8,520 nucleotides of DNA from a virus (Duplodnaviria > Heunggongvirae > Uroviricota > Caudoviricetes): the IMG/VR virus record IMGVR_UViG_2563367003_000003; one strand, written 5' to 3'. Every line of letters begins with the position of its first letter. Position 1 is the stretch's first letter. Position numbers and translations under genes: made by a program. The notes beneath the pieces are model-generated. The model was given only the letters and a program-made list of their open reading frames with translations. It was not told where the DNA came from and made no database searches. Positions 1 to 8,236 of the stretch are shown piece by piece.

Positions 1-1053
1 ATGACGTTACCACTAAGAGATTACTATCCTATTGAGCGCGCGGCAAAGTTATTAGACTGCGATATTGATGATCTTATTCATTGGGCTGTGACAGGCTGCA
101 TTCGTATTTGTATAAAAATTGAATCTGCATATGGAGTATTAAATATCCCAGATGAAAAAGATGTGGTTAATTTCGATTGTCTGCGTAAGTTTCTGGATTC
201 AGAACCATGTAAATCACGGTTATCTGACCTTGATGCCATTTCAGAAAGGGCGGCAGAACACCATGGTTTTAATTATATAAAAACCAAGTCGAGAATTATA
301 TTTGATTCAATGTGCGAATCTCTAAGTCATTCATATGTAGCGCCCAAATTTGGTGACATAGCAATTGATACTGCATTTGCTTTGTTAAATTATTATAACA
401 GGGGGTTATATTATGGGGAAAATTATCACATATATAGTGTATATCGAATAGCAACGGATGAAAGAGCTGTGGCAGTTGTACCACCAGTATTTAAAGGTAT
501 TCAAGAAAAATACCATAAGTATTTTGTTGAAATAGGCGGTATTTTCGCTTTGGGGGGAAGTTTTTTTGCCAACTATGATTTTAATAAGAAGTTTAAAGCC
601 AACCGAATAATTAATAGCAATATTATAATTGCTTCTGACGTTGATATACATATAGGAGTAATTGTTACTGAGGATGTTTCTTTTGATATTGGTGATTTAT
701 ATATCTTAAAGAGTGATTTTTTAAAAATACAAAATGCTACAAGCTCCAATAGCGAGTTAAGAAAAGATTATGTTAATCCATTGGCAGACACTTTATATTT
801 GTGTGCGGGTAACAATATATTAAGCTCTGAGGATGGAGAGAAAGATATATGCACCAATAAAAACAATATAGAACGATTATCTAAAACAATGAAGGATTTT
901 TTTCGTGCGATGCTTGTTATTCATTATAAAGAACTCGAAAACAATCCGGTAAAACTTGCTGATATATTGACCGCGGAAGCAAAAGAGGCAGGACTCAATA
1001 TGCGCTTTGATAAAAGTACTATATCAAGATGGATTAAGGCATCATCTCAGTAA
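1..1053 (+). CDS. Hypothetical protein, 350 aa, AT-rich cargo-like gene of unknown function; weak HTH-like segments at both termini
   Basis: Long uninterrupted ORF from the track. By eye it is clearly more AT-rich (mid-30s % GC in sampled 60-nt stretches) than the primase and integrase genes (about 50%). N-terminus (YPIERAAKLLDCDIDDLIHW) and C-terminus (KLADILTAEAKEAGLNMRFDKSTISRWIK) look like helix-turn-helix segments. No catalytic motif recognised. ATG at position 1, so the true start could lie upstream of the window. Confidence 0.6.
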   Translation: MTLPLRDYYPIERAAKLLDCDIDDLIHWAVTGCIRICIKIESAYGVLNIPDEKDVVNFDCLRKFLDSEPCKSRLSDLDAISERAAEHHGFNYIKTKSRIIFDSMCESLSHSYVAPKFGDIAIDTAFALLNYYNRGLYYGENYHIYSVYRIATDERAVAVVPPVFKGIQEKYHKYFVEIGGIFALGGSFFANYDFNKKFKANRIINSNIIIASDVDIHIGVIVTEDVSFDIGDLYILKSDFLKIQNATSSNSELRKDYVNPLADTLYLCAGNNILSSEDGEKDICTNKNNIERLSKTMKDFFRAMLVIHYKELENNPVKLADILTAEAKEAGLNMRFDKSTISRWIKASSQ

Positions 1054-1116
1054 GACCAGCAAGCATCTTAATAAGACCTTTAATACTTGCTTTCAAAACT
1101 CCGTAAAACAAAAATC

Positions 1117-1145
1117 TCCCCCGAAAGTTCAGAAACATAGGGGGA
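1117..1145 (+). promoter_or_regulatory. Possible RBS-sequestering stem-loop in the 5' leader of the alpA-like gene
   Basis: TCCCCC (1117-1122) is the reverse complement of GGGGGA (1140-1145), which is the Shine-Dalgarno for the ATG at 1149. Stem is only 6 bp with a 17-nt loop. Confidence 0.25.
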
Positions 1146-1148
1146 AAT

Positions 1149-1469
1149 ATGACTCAATCCGCATTCATTCCACCAACTCCAGAACAGCGCCGCACCATAC
1201 TCGCCGAGTATGGTTTTGACTGCGAAGAACGCATCAGGGAAGAGAAGTGTAAAAAAATGACCACGCTTTCACGCTCCCGGCGCTGGGAACTGGAGAAGAT
1301 CGGTGCTTTTCCTCCCCGTCACTCTTTGGGGCGTTGCTCATGTACCTGGCTGTTAAGTGATGTTTTGTGGTGGCTACGTAATCCGCCAGTTATTGCCAAA
1401 GTGAATAACCCATACGAAAACGCCAAAAAGAAAAGGGAGAGGGAATCCGGTAGCGCCAGAGTTGAATAA
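1149..1469 (+). CDS. alpA: AlpA/Vis-family prophage regulatory protein (HTH excisionase-like), 106 aa
   Basis: Core MTTLSRSRRWELEKIGAFPPRHSLG...W...DVLWWL follows the AlpA pattern (G.SR...W...G.FP...G...W...D..W) as I recall it from E. coli CP4-57 AlpA. Strong SD GGGGGA 3 nt upstream of the ATG. Has a ~30-aa N-terminal extension relative to minimal AlpA proteins. Confidence 0.7.
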   Translation: MTQSAFIPPTPEQRRTILAEYGFDCEERIREEKCKKMTTLSRSRRWELEKIGAFPPRHSLGRCSCTWLLSDVLWWLRNPPVIAKVNNPYENAKKKRERESGSARVE

Positions 1470-1765: not shown

Positions 1766-2017
1766 TTGCCCGCACCTCATAAAACAGGTGCCGGGTTTGA
1801 CAGCCTGAACAATCAAGCGGGTAGCCGCTATATTTCCGTAATGCGGTTTTTTTGTGCCCGTAATTCCACCCTACCCCGTATTATGGCGGGGCGTAATGGG
1901 GGAGCCTTTGCGCTCGCTGGTTCCTTGATTGCCAGTCTGTCAACCCTGTTACGTCCCGCCACCATGTTTGACAGCGTGCTGGCGAGACTCCGTAAACTTA
2001 ATCAAGGAGCCGCCAAA

Positions 2018-2840: not shown

Positions 2841-3146
2841 ATGTCTGAAAATCAGAATTACGCAGATATTTTAGATAAAGAATACATTGGATTTTTTACA
2901 GAGAGTGCAAAAGAAGATCTCGCAGATGTAATTAACCTCATCGATCTTATATCCATCATGTTTGGTGAGAGGGATTGCGGAGCATCTTCAGAAATCACAA
3001 ACAAAGCAATTGTATCTCTGTTTAATATTATTTATCGGGAATTAGAAACAATAAAATCTGGTATGCATCTTTCTGGCGGTATTTTTTCATGGCACAAAGC
3101 TGAAGCCGCAGGGATTACCAAGAAACAAGAAGTAACGAGTAATTAA
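2841..3146 (+). CDS. Hypothetical protein, 101 aa, AT-rich moron-like gene directly upstream of the primase
   Basis: SD GGGGGAG (2829-2835) 5 nt before the ATG. Lower GC than its neighbours. Bracketed by a 5-bp hairpin (CGACC/GGTCG, 2814-2829) and a strong 3' hairpin. No recognisable motif. Confidence 0.55.
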   Translation: MSENQNYADILDKEYIGFFTESAKEDLADVINLIDLISIMFGERDCGASSEITNKAIVSLFNIIYRELETIKSGMHLSGGIFSWHKAEAAGITKKQEVTSN

Positions 3147-3150
3147 TAAA

Positions 3151-3185
3151 ACCCCACTGCAAAAGGTGCAGTGGGGTGGAGTTTT
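3151..3185 (+). terminator. Strong stem-loop (11-bp stem) with a short U-run, between the 101-aa gene and the primase start; possible terminator or attenuator
   Basis: ACCCCACTGCA (3151-3161), loop AAAGG, TGCAGTGGGGT (3167-3177), perfect complement. Followed by GGAG then TTTT (3182-3185), so the U-tract is 4 nt from the stem and not canonical. The hairpin contains the GTG at 3166 that the ORF track uses as the primase start. Confidence 0.4.
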
Positions 3186-3189
3186 ATAT

Positions 3190-5865
3190 ATGAAATCTGA
3201 CATCAGAAAAGAGATTATTAACCGTCTTATCCGTGATTACAACTTCAAAGAAGAAAATAACTACCTCCGGTATGGTGTTTGTCCGCAATGTGGAAAGAAA
3301 GAGTTGTTTACCAGCCTTGAAAGGCCGTACATCGTACACTGCGGGCGTGAAAATAAATGCGGTACAGACCTGCTGACTAAAGAACTTTACCCGGATGTGT
3401 TTTCATCATGGTCAGATCGCTATATCAGTACGAAAGATGAACCATACGCAGCGGCGGCAGCTTATCTCCTGGAGGCACGCAATATTGCTACAGAGCCACT
3501 GAAGGGGGTATTTACCCAGGAGCGATACAAAGACAAGGAAAGCGGCGAACAGGCCGCTACTGTGCGTTTTACGCTGGCTGACGACGTGTGGTGGGAGCGC
3601 ATCATAGACCGACCGGAACGCTTCGAACGGAAGGCGAATTTTTCCGGCAGCTACAAGGGGTTGTGGTGGGCTTATCCGGGAGCAGATTTAAGCAAGGCCA
3701 AAGAAATCTGGATTTGTGAGGGTATCTTTGATGCCATCAGCCTTAACCAGAATGGCATTGCGGCCGTTTCTGTCATGTCTGCCGTGAGCTACCCTGATAA
3801 GGCACTGGAAGAGCTGGCGAAGCTGTGCGGGGATAATCCCCGTCCGGTTATCGTGTGGGCGCTGGATAACGGGCGTGCAGGTGAGCGTTACGCGAAAAAA
3901 CATGCAGAACGCAGCGCCGAAGACGGCTGGAGAACGGCAGCGGCGTTGCCAGGTAAAAACAACAATAAACGCGACTGGAATGATTTACACATCGCCGGAA
4001 AGCTGCGTGGCCATGATGTGAAAAGATACCGTTATTACGGTGATTTATTGCTGGCGAAATCTCCAAGAGATAAGGCACTAATAATGTTTTCCTTTCGTGA
4101 GCGGAAGGAATTTCATTTTACTTTTGATAACCGTGTTTTCTGGTTCAAGCTGGACATTGAGCGCCATATGAAGGCTGTTGAGCGTGTCATTAATGAGCGA
4201 AATGTTGATGAGGATGAAGCGCGCAAAATTGCACTTAAGGAATCTGGTGCAGTAAAAGAAATCGCAAACTGTAACCCAGCGCCGCTTTATTACATTCGAA
4301 ATAATGACACGGATGAAGCATGGTATTACTTCCGTGTTACGTTCCCGGATGGTGCTACGGTGAAAAACACCTTTACATCAGGACAATTAACATCCTCATC
4401 TGAATTTAAAAAACGCCTGTTACACGTGGCAAAAGGCGGTATTTATACCGGAACGACTACGCAGCTTGACGCATTAATAAAAAATGACCTTCCCGCAATA
4501 AAAGAGGTTATTGGTCAGGATTTTATCGGATACAACAAGGCGATTGGGGCATGGCTGTTTAATGATATTGCTGTTTACAAGGGAAAAACTTATGAAATCA
4601 ATGACGAGGATTATTTTGAAATTGATGGCATAAACGCAAAACCATTAAGCGAAAAACCCACATTACAGATTAACTACAAAAAACCGGATGAATTTACAGC
4701 GTCCTGGGTGGAAGATCTCTGGCTGGCTTTTGGTGAAAAGGGAATTATTACCCTGGCTTTCTGGTTGGGCTCCCTGTTCAGCGAACAAATCCGGGATAAA
4801 GAAGAATCCTTCCCTTTCCTTGAAGTCACCGGAGAGCCCGGAACGGGCAAATCAACATTGATTGATTTTTGCTGGCGGCTGTGCGGTCGTGACAACTACG
4901 AAGGAGTTGATCCAACCAAAGGATCAGAGGCGGGCTGGAAGCGCACCTTTGGACAGGTCGCCGGATTGCCTGTTGTTCTGATTGAAGCAGACCGGGGAGA
5001 CAATGCGCAAAAAAGAGGTGCGTTTGACTTCGATAACCTGAAAAGCCTCTATAACGGTGGCGGTATCGGTGTTCGTGGGGTTAAGGCCAACAATAACAAC
5101 ACCTATGACCCGGATTTTAAGGGCGCTATCGTGATTGCGCAGAATGCGCGGGTAAATGCCTCGCCGGCAATTATTGAGCGCCTGATACGCATATACACCG
5201 ATAAAAAACGCCATTCACCTGATACCCGACTGGCGGCGAGACGGCTGGAACTCTACCCCGTCGAGAAGGTATCGGGGTTTATTCACCGGGCGGTAAGTCA
5301 GGAACGGGCGATTATGCAAACGTTCCTGGAAGTATCGCCCGCTGAAACGGAACGCCTTTGCGGATGCGAAAATATTCGCCATCCCCGTATTGCCAAAAAT
5401 CACGCGCAACTTATCGCGCTGGTCAGGGCGCTGAAATGCGTTATCGATATCCCGGATGAATGGCTTGATGCCACATGTCTGGAACTGGAACAAATGGCAA
5501 CGGCGCAGGTTAAAGCGGCGGCGGCTGACTTGCCAGAAGTGATGGAGTTCTGGGAGGCGTTCGACTTCCTGGACGGCATAACAAAATACGGTGTAAACCA
5601 TTACGGCAAGGGATGCCGCGAAGGGATTGCTATCAGTATTCCGCAACTGGCACAGGCTGCCGCCATTCACCGCGTGGAGATCCGAACCGATCGCGAAATG
5701 ATTGAGTTGCTCGGAGCTGGGCGTTCCCGACCGTTGACAGGCCGTAAAACCATTCGTAGTGAGGTGTCCAGACAGGCAAACGCCGGAAAAGGAGTAGCCG
5801 AAGCCAGAGAGCCGGAAGTACTGAAATGCCGGATATTCAGTTACAAGGAGGTCACCGAAAAATGA
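3190..5865 (+). CDS. Bifunctional DNA primase/helicase, P4 alpha-like replication protein (zinc ribbon + TOPRIM-type primase + P-loop NTPase)
   Basis: Track ORF 3166-5865 begins with GTG inside the hairpin; the first ATG at 3190 has SD GGAG (3178-3181). Motifs: zinc ribbon CPQCG...HCGRENKCG (about nt 3279-3363), TOPRIM-like EGIFDAISL (about 3715-3744) with ALDNGRAG (about 3859-3882), Walker A GEPGTGKST (about 4832-4858), Walker B-like VVLIEAD (about 4970-4990). Architecture matches P4-family primase/helicases. Confidence 0.85.
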   Translation: MKSDIRKEIINRLIRDYNFKEENNYLRYGVCPQCGKKELFTSLERPYIVHCGRENKCGTDLLTKELYPDVFSSWSDRYISTKDEPYAAAAAYLLEARNIATEPLKGVFTQERYKDKESGEQAATVRFTLADDVWWERIIDRPERFERKANFSGSYKGLWWAYPGADLSKAKEIWICEGIFDAISLNQNGIAAVSVMSAVSYPDKALEELAKLCGDNPRPVIVWALDNGRAGERYAKKHAERSAEDGWRTAAALPGKNNNKRDWNDLHIAGKLRGHDVKRYRYYGDLLLAKSPRDKALIMFSFRERKEFHFTFDNRVFWFKLDIERHMKAVERVINERNVDEDEARKIALKESGAVKEIANCNPAPLYYIRNNDTDEAWYYFRVTFPDGATVKNTFTSGQLTSSSEFKKRLLHVAKGGIYTGTTTQLDALIKNDLPAIKEVIGQDFIGYNKAIGAWLFNDIAVYKGKTYEINDEDYFEIDGINAKPLSEKPTLQINYKKPDEFTASWVEDLWLAFGEKGIITLAFWLGSLFSEQIRDKEESFPFLEVTGEPGTGKSTLIDFCWRLCGRDNYEGVDPTKGSEAGWKRTFGQVAGLPVVLIEADRGDNAQKRGAFDFDNLKSLYNGGGIGVRGVKANNNNTYDPDFKGAIVIAQNARVNASPAIIERLIRIYTDKKRHSPDTRLAARRLELYPVEKVSGFIHRAVSQERAIMQTFLEVSPAETERLCGCENIRHPRIAKNHAQLIALVRALKCVIDIPDEWLDATCLELEQMATAQVKAAAADLPEVMEFWEAFDFLDGITKYGVNHYGKGCREGIAISIPQLAQAAAIHRVEIRTDREMIELLGAGRSRPLTGRKTIRSEVSRQANAGKGVAEAREPEVLKCRIFSYKEVTEK

Positions 5866-6872
5866 CGATAAAGAAGTTGGTTAACGGTAAGTTTGCTGTG
5901 GACGTGCGGCCTGCAGGAGCAGAAGGAAAAAGATTCAGGCGGCGATTTGATACTCGTGGTGAAGCAGTGGCGTATGAACGCCATGTTCTGATGCACTACC
6001 ACAACAAAGAGTGGGTCGAAAAGCCCATTGAACGTAAAGCGTTAAGCGATCTTCTGGAATTATGGTGGGCGTATCATGGCAAGAATCATCGTTATGGAGC
6101 GATGACGCGGGTAAGAATTGAAGCTGTTCTTTGTGATATGCGCGAACTTGGGATAAACAGAAGCGATCATTTAACCCGGAAAAATATTATCAGATATCGA
6201 CTTAAATTAATGAATCGTGGAATTAAACAGTCAACAGTAAATCGCTATTGTGCCATGATGAGCGGTTTCTTTGAAAAGCTGATTGATGCTGAAGAGTTTG
6301 CGGGTAATAACCCGTTTCGCGAGATACGTAAGTTAAACATTAATCAGCCAGAAATGGCTTATCTTGCACATGATGATATTTCCAGGCTAACCGCGCTTTT
6401 ATCTGGCGATAATCTTAAGGCTGTATTGTTGTGTCTGGCTACAGGTGGGCGCTGGGGTGAGATTGCCAATATTAAAGGTGAGCACATAATTGGCGGAAAG
6501 GTTATTTTTATGAAGACAAAGAACGGCTCAAGGCGGGTCGTTCCAATCGCTAAAGATCTTGAATCACTGGTCAAAGTAAAGGCGACCGGAAGATTAATGA
6601 AACCTAATTATGCAACTGTCAGAAGTGCAATAAGGACTGTGCGGCCTGATTTACCCGTCGGTCAGTCTGTGCATGTTTTACGGCATACCTTTGCCACTCA
6701 CTTTATGATTAATGGTGGAAACATCATCACATTGCAGAAAATACTAGGACACAGCACTATTCAGCAGACGATGACTTACGCGCATTTTGCACCGGATTAC
6801 CTGGCAGATGCCATGAGATTTAACCCGGTAGCCAACATAGTGATCACCGAAGAAAAAGAGCCAGCAGAGTAA
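5862..6872 (+). CDS. int: Tyrosine recombinase, P2-Int-family integrase, 336 aa
   Basis: N-terminus MTIKKLVNGKFAVDVRPAGAEGKRFRRRFDTRGEAVAYE and the catalytic region (GGRWGEIANIK; HVLRHTFATHFMINGGNIITLQKILGH; TMTYAHFAPDYL with the tyrosine nucleophile) closely parallel P2 Int as I recall it. Near-consensus SD AAGGAGGT (5845-5852). The ATG at 5862 overlaps the primase TGA (5863-5865) as ATGA. The track start at 5826 is an upstream in-frame extension. Confidence 0.9.
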   Translation: MTIKKLVNGKFAVDVRPAGAEGKRFRRRFDTRGEAVAYERHVLMHYHNKEWVEKPIERKALSDLLELWWAYHGKNHRYGAMTRVRIEAVLCDMRELGINRSDHLTRKNIIRYRLKLMNRGIKQSTVNRYCAMMSGFFEKLIDAEEFAGNNPFREIRKLNINQPEMAYLAHDDISRLTALLSGDNLKAVLLCLATGGRWGEIANIKGEHIIGGKVIFMKTKNGSRRVVPIAKDLESLVKVKATGRLMKPNYATVRSAIRTVRPDLPVGQSVHVLRHTFATHFMINGGNIITLQKILGHSTIQQTMTYAHFAPDYLADAMRFNPVANIVITEEKEPAE

Positions 6873-8053: not shown

Positions 8054-8236
8054 ATGTCTTTCCCTTGCCCGGCCTGTGGCGCTTCAGCCCGCACCCGTGG
8101 TCGTTCGTTGGAAGAACACGAACAAAACATCTACAGAACGTATTACCAGTGCAATAATATTGAGTGTGGGGCTTGTTTTTGTACGCTTGAGTCGTTTGTA
8201 CGCATTACTAAGCGCAGGAAGTCGAAAACTTCATAG
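8054..8236 (+). CDS. ogr: Ogr/Delta-family zinc-finger late-gene transcriptional activator, 60 aa
   Basis: C-x2-C ... C-x4-C arrangement (FPCPACGASARTRG...YYQCNNIECGACF...ESFVR) aligns with the P2 Ogr / P4 Delta zinc-finger pattern as I recall it. Good SD and -10. The overlapping track ORF 8049-8381 in another frame is rejected. Confidence 0.8.
   Translation: MSFPCPACGASARTRGRSLEEHEQNIYRTYYQCNNIECGACFCTLESFVRITKRRKSKTS

What the first reader, a model, noticed from the sequence alone, without database searches (positions are those of the whole stretch)
1..1053. AT-rich 350-aa ORF of unknown function beside the alpA-like regulator: candidate accessory/cargo gene
Its base composition is clearly more AT-rich than the core replication and integration genes, suggesting separate acquisition. 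The protein has HTH-like segments at both ends and a roughly 250-aa central region with no motif I recognise. Variable, compositionally deviant genes next to alpA in satellite and P4-like islands are often anti-phage defence, abortive-infection or helper-manipulation cargo, so this is the best candidate here for an undescribed function.
Basis: inference. Interest (0 to 1): 0.65.

Follow-up and report, generated by a model that had tools for sequence, protein, structure and literature searches.

The report
Hypervariable gene beside satellite integrase
The 350-codon AT-rich ORF is a real, complete gene from an undescribed protein family that sits between the integrase and the alpA regulator in some phage satellites (P4-like islands and PICIs), keeping its ends while its middle is swapped for very different versions, which points to a role in phage-satellite conflict that has not been tested.

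Summary
The ORF at 1-1053 (+) is real, complete and AT-rich: 33.7% GC against about 49% for its neighbours. It matches nothing in Pfam, NCBIfam, PHROGs, PADLOC or the PDB, by sequence or by fold.

It is not random cargo. All 43 complete E. coli genomes with this integrase/alpA pair carry a gene of about 1.05 kb in the same slot. The flanks are nearly identical (Int 93-98%, AlpA 92-100%), but the slot gene falls into alleles only 25-35% identical. Every allele is AT-rich. Within this allele dN/dS is 0.17-0.45.

The exhaustive search returned 255 representatives, all uncharacterised. They share a 45-residue acidic N-domain with near-invariant Cys20, Asp24 and His27. Most of the full-length relatives also keep a "DLFILKxDF" motif and a basic three-helix C-terminus. 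The middle is variable and acidic.

Relatives also lie between int and alpA in an O157:H7 capsid-forming PICI. EcCICFT073 and sister islands lack the gene, so it is optional. No GenBank phage carries it.

Best reading (about 0.35): an integrase-linked accessory protein whose variable middle recognises a phage component. Close rival (about 0.3): a helper-specific regulator of alpA.

The parts
1..1053 (+). Complete 350-aa ORF ('X'), the integrase-adjacent hypervariable gene, allele A
1..144 (+). Conserved acidic N-domain (residues 1-48), MxLPLR[DE]YYPxxRAAxLLxCxxDDLxHWAxxGxI. Near-invariant A14, C20, D24 and H27 across 141 representatives. Predicted strand-helix-helix-long strand.
145..696 (+). 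Variable central region (residues 49-232): a helical subdomain followed by a beta-rich subdomain. Only G180/F182 ('GFFxL') are kept. Median net charge of the family is -15.
697..750 (+). Conserved strand-helix motif DLyILKsDFlkI (residues 233-250), with invariant D239 and F240 and near-invariant L233 and K237
751..876 (+). Low-confidence, probably disordered linker (residues 251-292)
877..1050 (+). Basic three-helix C-terminal domain (residues 293-350), R-x-S ... P-x-K-L-A ... K-S-T-I-S-R-W-I-K. Other alleles carry at least one alternative C-terminal type.
1058..1091 (+). Inverted repeat or hairpin just after the stop codon (AGCAAGCAT..ATACTTGCT, enclosing CTTAATAAG). Other alleles have 13-16-nt perfect arms at the same place. 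It may be a terminator or an operator; this is undecided.
1114..1148 (+). Hairpin in the alpA leader (ATCTCCCCC..GGGGGAAAT) that pairs with the alpA Shine-Dalgarno. This stretch is conserved between islands that carry different X alleles.
1149..1469 (+). AlpA-family regulator (106 aa), the constant downstream partner of X

Best explanation
The ORF encodes a member of an undescribed protein family that is linked to the integrase in a subset of Gram-negative phage satellites, both P4-like islands and PICIs.

Shown:
- The gene is complete.
- It lies 3-62 nt after int (overlapping int by 4 nt in the two cf-PICI loci) and 92-126 nt before alpA.
- It is under purifying selection within an allele.
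- Between near-identical islands it is replaced by alleles only 25-35% identical that keep the same predicted topology.

Inferred:
- The gene is co-transcribed with int in the integrated state.
- It acts as a conflict or specificity protein. The variable, acidic central domain binds a phage-encoded component, from a helper or a competing phage.
- The conserved modules provide the common output: the N-domain with the Cys20-x3-Asp24-x2-His27 face, the DLFILKxDF motif, and the basic C-terminal three-helix domain.
- Because no enzymatic or membrane effector domain is recognisable and the C-terminus looks like a DNA-binding helical domain, the output is most likely binding or sequestration and transcriptional interference, not killing of the cell.
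- In this reading the gene interferes with incoming phages, and is an accessory function, not a step of the satellite's own cycle.
For: - The slot is always filled by a homologue of the same size in 43 of 43 E. coli islands, in several alleles: 29 A, 1 A2 and 13 others.
- Flanks are conserved while X diverges. L001 vs L004: Int 93.5%, AlpA 100%, X 29%. L001 vs L005: 96.5, 97 and 26%. Salmonella L008 vs L010: 98, 92 and 30%.
- Divergent alleles have the same predicted secondary-structure topology.
- dN/dS is 0.17-0.45 within allele A.
- The gene is optional. It is absent from EcCICFT073, whose Int is 77% identical to the Int of an X-carrying O157:H7 cf-PICI, and absent from a tRNA-Arg island with the same backbone.
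- The element already has a P4-type C4/isrK immunity RNA.
- All 12 members examined are AT-rich.
- Each allele cluster is very small, and all are named hypothetical.
- An orphan copy is kept in K. pneumoniae without int or alpA.
- It is absent from 50,697 phage genomes.
- No conserved catalytic-type residues occur in the variable part. The middle is acidic and the C-terminus basic.
- Precedent: PICIs and P4-like satellites carry immune genes in accessory regions, and the Tai family is a single family at 22-43% identity that binds phage tail proteins (PMC11364771, PMC13586616).
Against: - There is no phenotype. No member matches any of 5,027 PADLOC models.
- Defence hotspots normally hold unrelated systems in related elements. 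Here one family monopolises the slot, which looks more like an element-intrinsic function.
- The position directly upstream of the master activator alpA, with a unique inverted repeat in between, fits a regulator equally well.
- DNA binding is not demonstrated. The HTH assignments did not reach significance in any sequence or fold search.
- The AlphaFold models are of moderate confidence (pLDDT 71 and 65) and come from shallow alignments.
Confidence: 0.35

Rival explanations
1. Helper-specific regulator of the satellite, analogous to Stl. X binds DNA in the X-alpA intergenic region (the inverted repeat after its stop codon or the alpA promoter) and gates alpA, the activator of excision and replication. 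The variable central domain binds a helper-phage protein that relieves or triggers this control, so each allele sets which helpers can induce the island.
For: - The gene is always immediately upstream of alpA and downstream of int, in the regulatory corner of the element.
- A unique inverted repeat (CTTAWTAAG arms) lies right after the gene.
- The C-terminal three-helix domain is basic and ends in K-S-T-I-S-R-W-I-K.
- Alleles are hypervariable between near-identical islands, as for SaPI Stl.
- The literature states that a global repressor of Gram-negative PICIs and the phage inducer of alpA are unknown (PMC6092414).
Against: - EcCICFT073 is induced by helpers through alpA yet has no gene in this slot.
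- Sister islands with the same backbone lack it.
- This element already carries a C4/isrK immunity RNA of the P4 type.
- X is co-directional with alpA and followed by a terminator-like hairpin, unlike divergently transcribed Stl.
- The inverted repeat may simply be that terminator. The fold is not better than shuffles (z = -1.26).
- The AT-rich composition is atypical for a core regulator.
Confidence: 0.3
2. Accessory factor of site-specific recombination: an excisionase-like or architectural partner of the adjacent integrase, or a determinant of the attachment site.
For: The gene is tightly linked, possibly translationally coupled, to int (3-20 nt gaps, and a 4-nt overlap in cf-PICIs). The N-terminus gives weak local structural matches to excisionases and MerR-type domains.
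Against: - Alleles at 26-29% identity sit beside Int proteins 93-98% identical that use the same gcd-hpt site.
- A 77%-identical Int works in EcCICFT073 with no such gene (PMC6092414).
- AlpA/Vis already fills the excisionase-like role.
- The N-domain is acidic.
Confidence: 0.07
3. Enzyme or metal-dependent effector. The near-invariant Cys20/Asp24/His27 face, possibly with Lys237/Asp239, forms a catalytic or metal-binding centre, and the variable middle targets it to substrates.
For: C20 is found in 134/141, D24 in 140/141 and H27 in 135/141 representatives of a family that is otherwise 25-45% identical. D239 and F240 are invariant in 29 full-length members.
Against: The three residues lie on one short helix (i, i+4, i+7) of a 45-residue module. 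No fold or sequence match to any hydrolase, transferase or metalloprotein family was found.
Confidence: 0.1

Closest known systems
Stl master repressors of SaPIs (Gram-positive PICIs)
   Same: The gene is encoded next to int in the regulatory corner of a satellite. The architecture is modular, with a conserved end and a highly divergent domain. Closely related islands carry very different alleles. Stl's divergent domain binds specific helper-phage proteins (established knowledge; cited in PMC6092414).
   Different: There is no sequence or fold similarity. X is co-directional with the downstream activator instead of divergent. X is absent from related inducible PICIs (EcCICFT073). This element already has RNA-based immunity. 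DNA binding by X is unproven.
Tai (tail assembly inhibition) proteins of phages, PICIs and P4-like satellites (PMC11364771)
   Same: Tai is a single protein family with very low identity between homologues (22-43%). It is carried by satellites and acts by binding a phage protein, not by enzymatic killing. DefenseFinder and PADLOC did not recognise it when it was found.
   Different: Tai genes are mostly in phages, and in PICIs they lie downstream of pri. X is in 0 of 50,697 phage genomes and always lies between int and alpA.
P4 hotspot cargo downstream of int (gop-beta-cII and diverse defence systems; PMC8628076, PMC13586616)
   Same: The position is immediately downstream of the satellite integrase. 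The gene is accessory and compositionally deviant.
   Different: The P4 hotspot holds many unrelated systems and the cos site, and is followed by psu-delta-sid. Here one homologous family fills the slot in every island, and the next gene is alpA.
AlpA / Vis / excisionase (MerR-like winged helix) domains
   Different: No significant profile or fold match was found. The putative recognition helix is acidic and carries near-invariant Cys, Asp and His. If it is this fold, the wing holds an insertion of about 185 residues.
YfjH of prophage CP4-57 (E. coli K-12)
   Same: It is a 318-aa protein of unknown function encoded between intA and alpA.
   Different: It lies on the opposite strand and is not homologous (hhalign probability 0.3%).

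Membership tests
AlpA / HTH_17 / excisionase (MerR-like wHTH), for the N-domain | Significant sequence-profile match to the family | tested here: not met
   No Pfam hit for the whole protein, the N-domain alone, or N-domain+motif chimeras. hhalign against an AlpA alignment gave probability 0.3%. PDB profile searches gave only chance hits.
AlpA / HTH_17 / excisionase (MerR-like wHTH), for the N-domain | Strand-helix-turn-helix-wing topology and structural superposition | tested here: inconclusive
AlpA / HTH_17 / excisionase (MerR-like wHTH), for the N-domain | Basic DNA-contacting recognition helix | tested here: not met
   Helix 2 reads C-[DET]-[VI]-[DE]-D-L-x-H-W. The domain has median pI 5.0 and charge -2.4.
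Known anti-phage defence systems (PADLOC-DB 2.0) | Match to a defence-protein HMM | tested here: not met
   No match for the window protein, 28 other full-length members, or 6 distant members.
Known anti-phage defence systems (PADLOC-DB 2.0) | Protection against phage on expression | not testable with these tools
   Needs plaque or liquid-infection assays.
Satellite defence hotspot (P4 / PICI accessory region) | Related elements carry unrelated gene systems at the same position | tested here: not met
   43 of 43 E. coli islands have a homologous gene of about 1.05 kb in the slot (span 2050-2119 bp). The same is true in Salmonella, Erwinia and IMG/VR loci.
Satellite defence hotspot (P4 / PICI accessory region) | Gene dispensable for the satellite cycle (absent from functional relatives) | tested here: met
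   EcCICFT073 has a 366-nt empty int-alpA interval, and experiments have shown it to be mobilisable (PMC6092414). The tRNA-Arg island L028 also lacks the gene.
Stl-like satellite master repressor | Very divergent alleles in closely related islands | tested here: met
   X is 26-30% identical where Int is 93-98% and AlpA 92-100%.
Stl-like satellite master repressor | Divergent transcription from the lytic operon, with an operator in between | tested here: not met
   int, X and alpA are co-directional. A hairpin or inverted repeat follows X.
Stl-like satellite master repressor | Binds island DNA and is released by a helper-phage protein | not testable with these tools
   Needs EMSA or ChIP and interaction assays.
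P4-like satellite (context of the gene) | Core set int, psu, delta, sid, alpA, epsilon, alpha (PMC8628076) | tested here: not met
   int, alpA, a toprim/D5-type primase and Ogr/Delta are present, as are the C4 and isrK RNAs. No psu or sid is annotated. Instead there is a P2-family major capsid gene and a second recombinase.

The most novel reading that the evidence does not exclude
X is the founding member of a new class of satellite-borne phage-recognition proteins with a previously unseen fold. A conserved Cys-Asp-His N-module and a basic C-terminal DNA-binding module are wired to an interchangeable sensor domain. The allele carried decides either which phages an island blocks or which helpers can induce it. 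The second option would make X the long-missing protein determinant of helper specificity in Gram-negative PICI and P4-like satellites. The family is also present in an O157:H7 cf-PICI that looks like the EcCIEDL933 model system, though I did not confirm that identity.
Probability: 0.3. Interest if true: 0.8.

Novelty: new variant of a known kind. Interest (0 to 1): 0.6.

Why it matters
Phage satellites are a major reservoir of anti-phage and helper-manipulation functions. How Gram-negative PICIs sense their helpers is an open question. This gene family has not been named in any library or paper I could search. It sits at a fixed, easily manipulated position next to the integrase. It is also present in an O157:H7 cf-PICI, and it shows one of the sharpest contrasts between conserved flanks and a hypervariable gene in these elements. 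If the variable domain recognises phage proteins, the natural allele series is a ready-made specificity panel. Swapping alleles between otherwise identical islands would directly test what sets phage-satellite specificity. It could also reveal a new fold and a new mode of interference.

Tried and rejected
- **Family scans of the whole protein.** Pfam, NCBIfam, PHROGs and PADLOC gave nothing. Nor did Pfam scans of 10 distant relatives, of N-domain, C-domain and chimeric constructs, or PADLOC scans of 35 family members.
- **PDB by sequence.** Four profiles were tried: whole protein, chimera, N-domain of 59 sequences, C-domain of 26 sequences. The only hits were chance matches to a plant complex-I PSST helix and to archaeal histone.
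- **Homology to YfjH.** YfjH holds the same position in CP4-57. Rejected.
- **Identity with Tai.** Rejected on genomic distribution. The sequences were not compared.
- **A split excisionase-type domain.** The idea was that the N-domain plus 'DLFILKxDF' form one excisionase fold with an insertion in the wing. It fits the predicted secondary structure but has no statistical support, so I keep it only as a hypothesis.
- **A fragment of a larger gene running off the window.** Rejected.
- **A recently acquired AT-rich island.** Rejected, because all alleles in all hosts are AT-rich.
- **The word-index protein search.** It found only 3-8 relatives. The exhaustive HMM search was needed to see the family.
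- **The genome-contig scan.** It gave only two loci, because it depended on a single peptide pattern.
- **RNA folding of the X-alpA spacer.** Not better than shuffles. Covariation in the alpA leader hairpin is weak.

Full report
**Observation.** The window opens with an ATG-initiated ORF of 350 codons at 1-1053 on the + strand. Sliding-window GC is 31-36% over the ORF and 45-55% over most of the rest. The identical sequence is found in 12 complete E. coli chromosomes, and at 90% identity or more in 30 of 5,426, always annotated 'hypothetical protein'.

In strain JP538 (L001) the gene sits in an island between gcd and hpt. The island's gene order is:
- a 399-aa tyrosine integrase
- this ORF
- an AlpA-like regulator of 106 aa
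- an 'Icd-like' ORF
- four small ORFs
- a toprim primase of 889 aa
- a second recombinase
- Ogr/Delta
- a 236-aa ORF
- a P2-family major capsid gene
- mazEF

The ORF starts 16 nt after the int stop, and an in-frame TGA lies 12 nt upstream. It is therefore complete. Gene-by-gene GC is 33.7% (GC3 25.6%) for the ORF, against 42% for int, 50% for alpA, 49% for the primase and 51% for the capsid.

**No known family.** Pfam, NCBIfam, PHROGs and PADLOC give nothing for this protein, while the neighbours are recognised as Phage_AlpA, Toprim/DUF5906 and Phage_integrase.

An AlphaFold model built on eight family members has pLDDT 71 and pTM 0.65. It shows:
- a strand-helix-helix-long strand start
- a helical subdomain
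- a beta-rich subdomain ending in a strand-helix (233-249)
- a disordered linker (260-292)
- three C-terminal helices

**The family and its position.** The word-indexed protein search found only a handful of relatives. The exhaustive HMM search found 255 representatives at E<=0.001. About 30 match over their full length. Most of the others are 200-380 aa long and share the first 40-50 residues, often with a second stretch.

Wherever I could see the context, the gene lies between an integrase and an AlpA-family gene:
- E. coli gcd-site islands (L001-L005, L007)
- Salmonella (L008-L010)
- an unnamed Logan contig next to an EamA gene (L011)
- Erwinia dacicola (L013)
- two distant IMG/VR contigs in which Int and AlpA are only 12-25% identical to those here (L020, L021)
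- a Klebsiella plasmid (L022)

The gap to int is 3-62 nt and the gap to alpA is 92-126 nt. Every member is AT-rich, at 30-39% GC and GC3 23-34%. None of 50,697 GenBank phage genomes encodes a relative.

**Hypervariability between conserved flanks.** Pairwise protein identities are as follows.

| Pair | Int | AlpA | X |
|---|---|---|---|
| L001 vs L004 | 93.5% | 100% | 29% |
| L001 vs L005 | 96.5% | 97% | 26% |
| Salmonella L008 vs L010 | 98% | 92% | 30% |

A query spanning the int 3' end, X and alpA finds 43 E. coli genomes. In all of them the two flanks lie 2,050-2,119 bp apart, so the slot always holds a gene of about 1.05 kb. Of these, 29 are allele A, one is a 64%-identical variant, and 13 are other alleles.

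DNA similarity between alleles runs from int into roughly the first 100 nt of X. It resumes about 39 nt upstream of the alpA start.

Within allele A, Int and AlpA proteins are identical. X carries 5-7 substitutions between the window allele and the three variants fetched (1-6 among those variants), with dN/dS 0.17-0.45. This means purifying selection within an allele and deep divergence between alleles.

A second AlphaFold model, of allele C (25% identical), reproduces the same order of secondary-structure elements. The alleles therefore share a fold.

**Conserved features.** In 29 full-length members the invariant positions are M1, L3, P4, L5, Y9, L17, L18, C20, D24, W28, D239 and F240. R6, R13, A14, A15, I34, G180, L233, K237 and A320 are nearly invariant.

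Across 141 representatives, A14 (138), C20 (134), D24 (140) and H27 (135) stand out. C20, D24 and H27 are spaced i, i+4, i+7 on helix 2. The charge pattern across the family is shown below.

| Region | Median pI | Median charge |
|---|---|---|
| N-domain | 5.0 | -2.4 |
| Central region | 4.5 | -15 |
| C-terminal domain | 9.25 | +2.8 |

No conserved constellation typical of nucleases, NADases, proteases or kinases appears in the variable part.

**Optional, and present in PICIs.** The N-domain is also found in the gene between int and alpA of capsid-forming PICIs. These include a 239-aa protein in strain PKF11 and a 257-aa protein in the O157:H7 cspD-clpS island (hhalign probability 96.7% over residues 1-57). 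In both loci the gene overlaps the int stop by 4 nt, and comparison of the PKF11 gene with other E. coli genomes shows the same pattern of conserved ends and a replaced middle. I did not confirm that this island is EcCIEDL933 itself.

By contrast, EcCICFT073 has an empty 366-nt int-alpA interval, although its Int is 77% identical to the O157:H7 one. Experiments have shown that EcCICFT073 is induced through alpA by helper phages (PMC6092414). A tRNA-Arg island with the same icd-to-primase backbone as this window also lacks the gene. The gene is therefore not needed for integration or for AlpA-dependent induction in general.

The window also carries isrK (1772-1853) and a C4 antisense RNA (1879-1966), the P4/P1-type RNA immunity module. 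The element already has a known means of repression.

**Interpretation.** Four facts argue for an accessory protein engaged in phage-satellite or phage-host conflict, with the variable middle acting as a recognition surface and the conserved ends providing a common output:
- the gene is optional
- it has deep allelic replacement between near-identical flanks
- it is AT-rich
- it is absent from phages

The Tai family is a precedent for a single, highly divergent satellite or phage family that acts by binding phage proteins and was invisible to defence-finding tools (PMC11364771).

Two facts argue the other way. The same family fills the slot in every related island. The gene lies next to alpA, with a unique inverted repeat just after it: CTTAWTAAG arms, 13-16-nt perfect arms in other alleles, found nowhere else in each locus. 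These facts fit an Stl-like helper-specific regulator almost as well. The literature explicitly leaves open whether Gram-negative PICIs have such a protein.

A recombination accessory role is unlikely, because very different alleles accompany the same Int and the same att site. I rate the conflict-protein reading at about 0.35, the regulator at about 0.3, an enzymatic or metal-dependent role of the Cys/Asp/His module at about 0.1, and a recombination role at about 0.07.

**Novelty.** No paper in the searchable library mentions these proteins by accession or describes a gene family between int and alpA. All database names are 'hypothetical protein'. The kind of thing is familiar: an int-adjacent accessory or regulatory gene of a satellite under diversifying replacement. 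The family, its predicted fold and its conserved module are not.

Noticed in passing
window 1772-1853 and 1879-1966 (+): Rfam matches above the gathering score to the isrK Hfq-binding RNA (52 bits) and the C4 antisense RNA (75 bits), the P1/P4-type RNA immunity module. They lie inside the 175-aa ORF annotated as 'host cell division inhibitor Icd-like' (1664-2191), so at least the 5' part of that annotation may be RNA, not protein.
   Followed up: partly
window 1114-1148 (+); the same place in L003, L010, L011, L013: A hairpin in the alpA leader pairs a C-rich arm with the alpA Shine-Dalgarno (CCCCC/GGGGG in some islands, CCUCC/GGAGG in others). It could sequester the RBS on read-through transcripts from int-X. 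Covariation is weak (one pair changed on both sides in 3 of 9 sequences), and the fold is not better than shuffles.
   Followed up: partly
window 1058-1091 (+); L005 5932-5969; L008 11016-11053; L004 5935-5966: An inverted repeat lies directly after the stop codon of every X allele examined except those of L011, L013, L020 and L021. The arms often contain CTTAATAAG/CTTATTAAG, a motif found nowhere else in the 14-25 kb loci. It is either the terminator of an int-X operon or a protein-binding palindrome.
   Followed up: partly
window 5826-6872 (+): A second tyrosine recombinase (Int_N + Phage_integrase, about 334-348 aa) lies immediately downstream of, and overlaps, the primase gene. It is conserved in all related islands (E. 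coli, Salmonella, the Erwinia-like MAG contig L012). Its role beside the att-proximal integrase is unexplained.
   Followed up: no
L001 20047-22660 (the Ogr/Delta gene is at window 8054-8236); L007 3981-5919; L008 11517-13505: The island has int, alpA, a C4 RNA, an alpha-like primase and Ogr/Delta, but no annotated psu or sid. Instead it encodes a P2-family major capsid protein preceded by a 236-291-aa ORF, possibly a scaffold. In some islands this pair sits right after alpA, in others at the far end. This looks like a P4-related satellite lineage that brings its own capsid gene.
   Followed up: no
window 2841-3146 (+) and 3151-3177: A second AT-rich ORF (101 aa, 37.6% GC, no family match) lies just upstream of the primase, in the position of P4 epsilon. 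It is followed by a strong bidirectional terminator-like hairpin (11 bp, 7 GC) that overlaps the start of the primase ORF as listed.
   Followed up: no
residues 20, 24, 27 of the ORF (window 58-81): Cys, Asp and His are near-invariant (134, 140 and 135 of 141 representatives), spaced i, i+4, i+7 on one predicted helix of an acidic 45-residue module. With the invariant Asp239, this suggests a metal site or a catalytic or interaction face, not a DNA-recognition helix. It remains unexplained.
   Followed up: partly
L023 5962-6783 (K. pneumoniae record NZ_CP129740.1, next to the yfdC-like formate/nitrite transporter gene and the cynR region): An orphan 273-aa member of the superfamily sits with no integrase or alpA beside it, at the same place in five Klebsiella pneumoniae records. 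The record is labelled a plasmid but carries chromosomal housekeeping genes.
   Followed up: no
L001 22704-23296: A mazEF (PemK/MazF plus AbrB/MazE) toxin-antitoxin pair forms the last genes of the island before hpt, on the opposite strand. Sister island L007 carries a Hok/Gef gene after ogr/delta instead (the locus ends before that island's right end).
   Followed up: no
L012 (record QAKE01000006.1): A contig labelled 'MAG: Bacillota bacterium' carries an island almost collinear with that of Candidatus Erwinia dacicola (int, X, alpA, 889-aa primase). This is probably a binning or contamination artefact.
   Followed up: no
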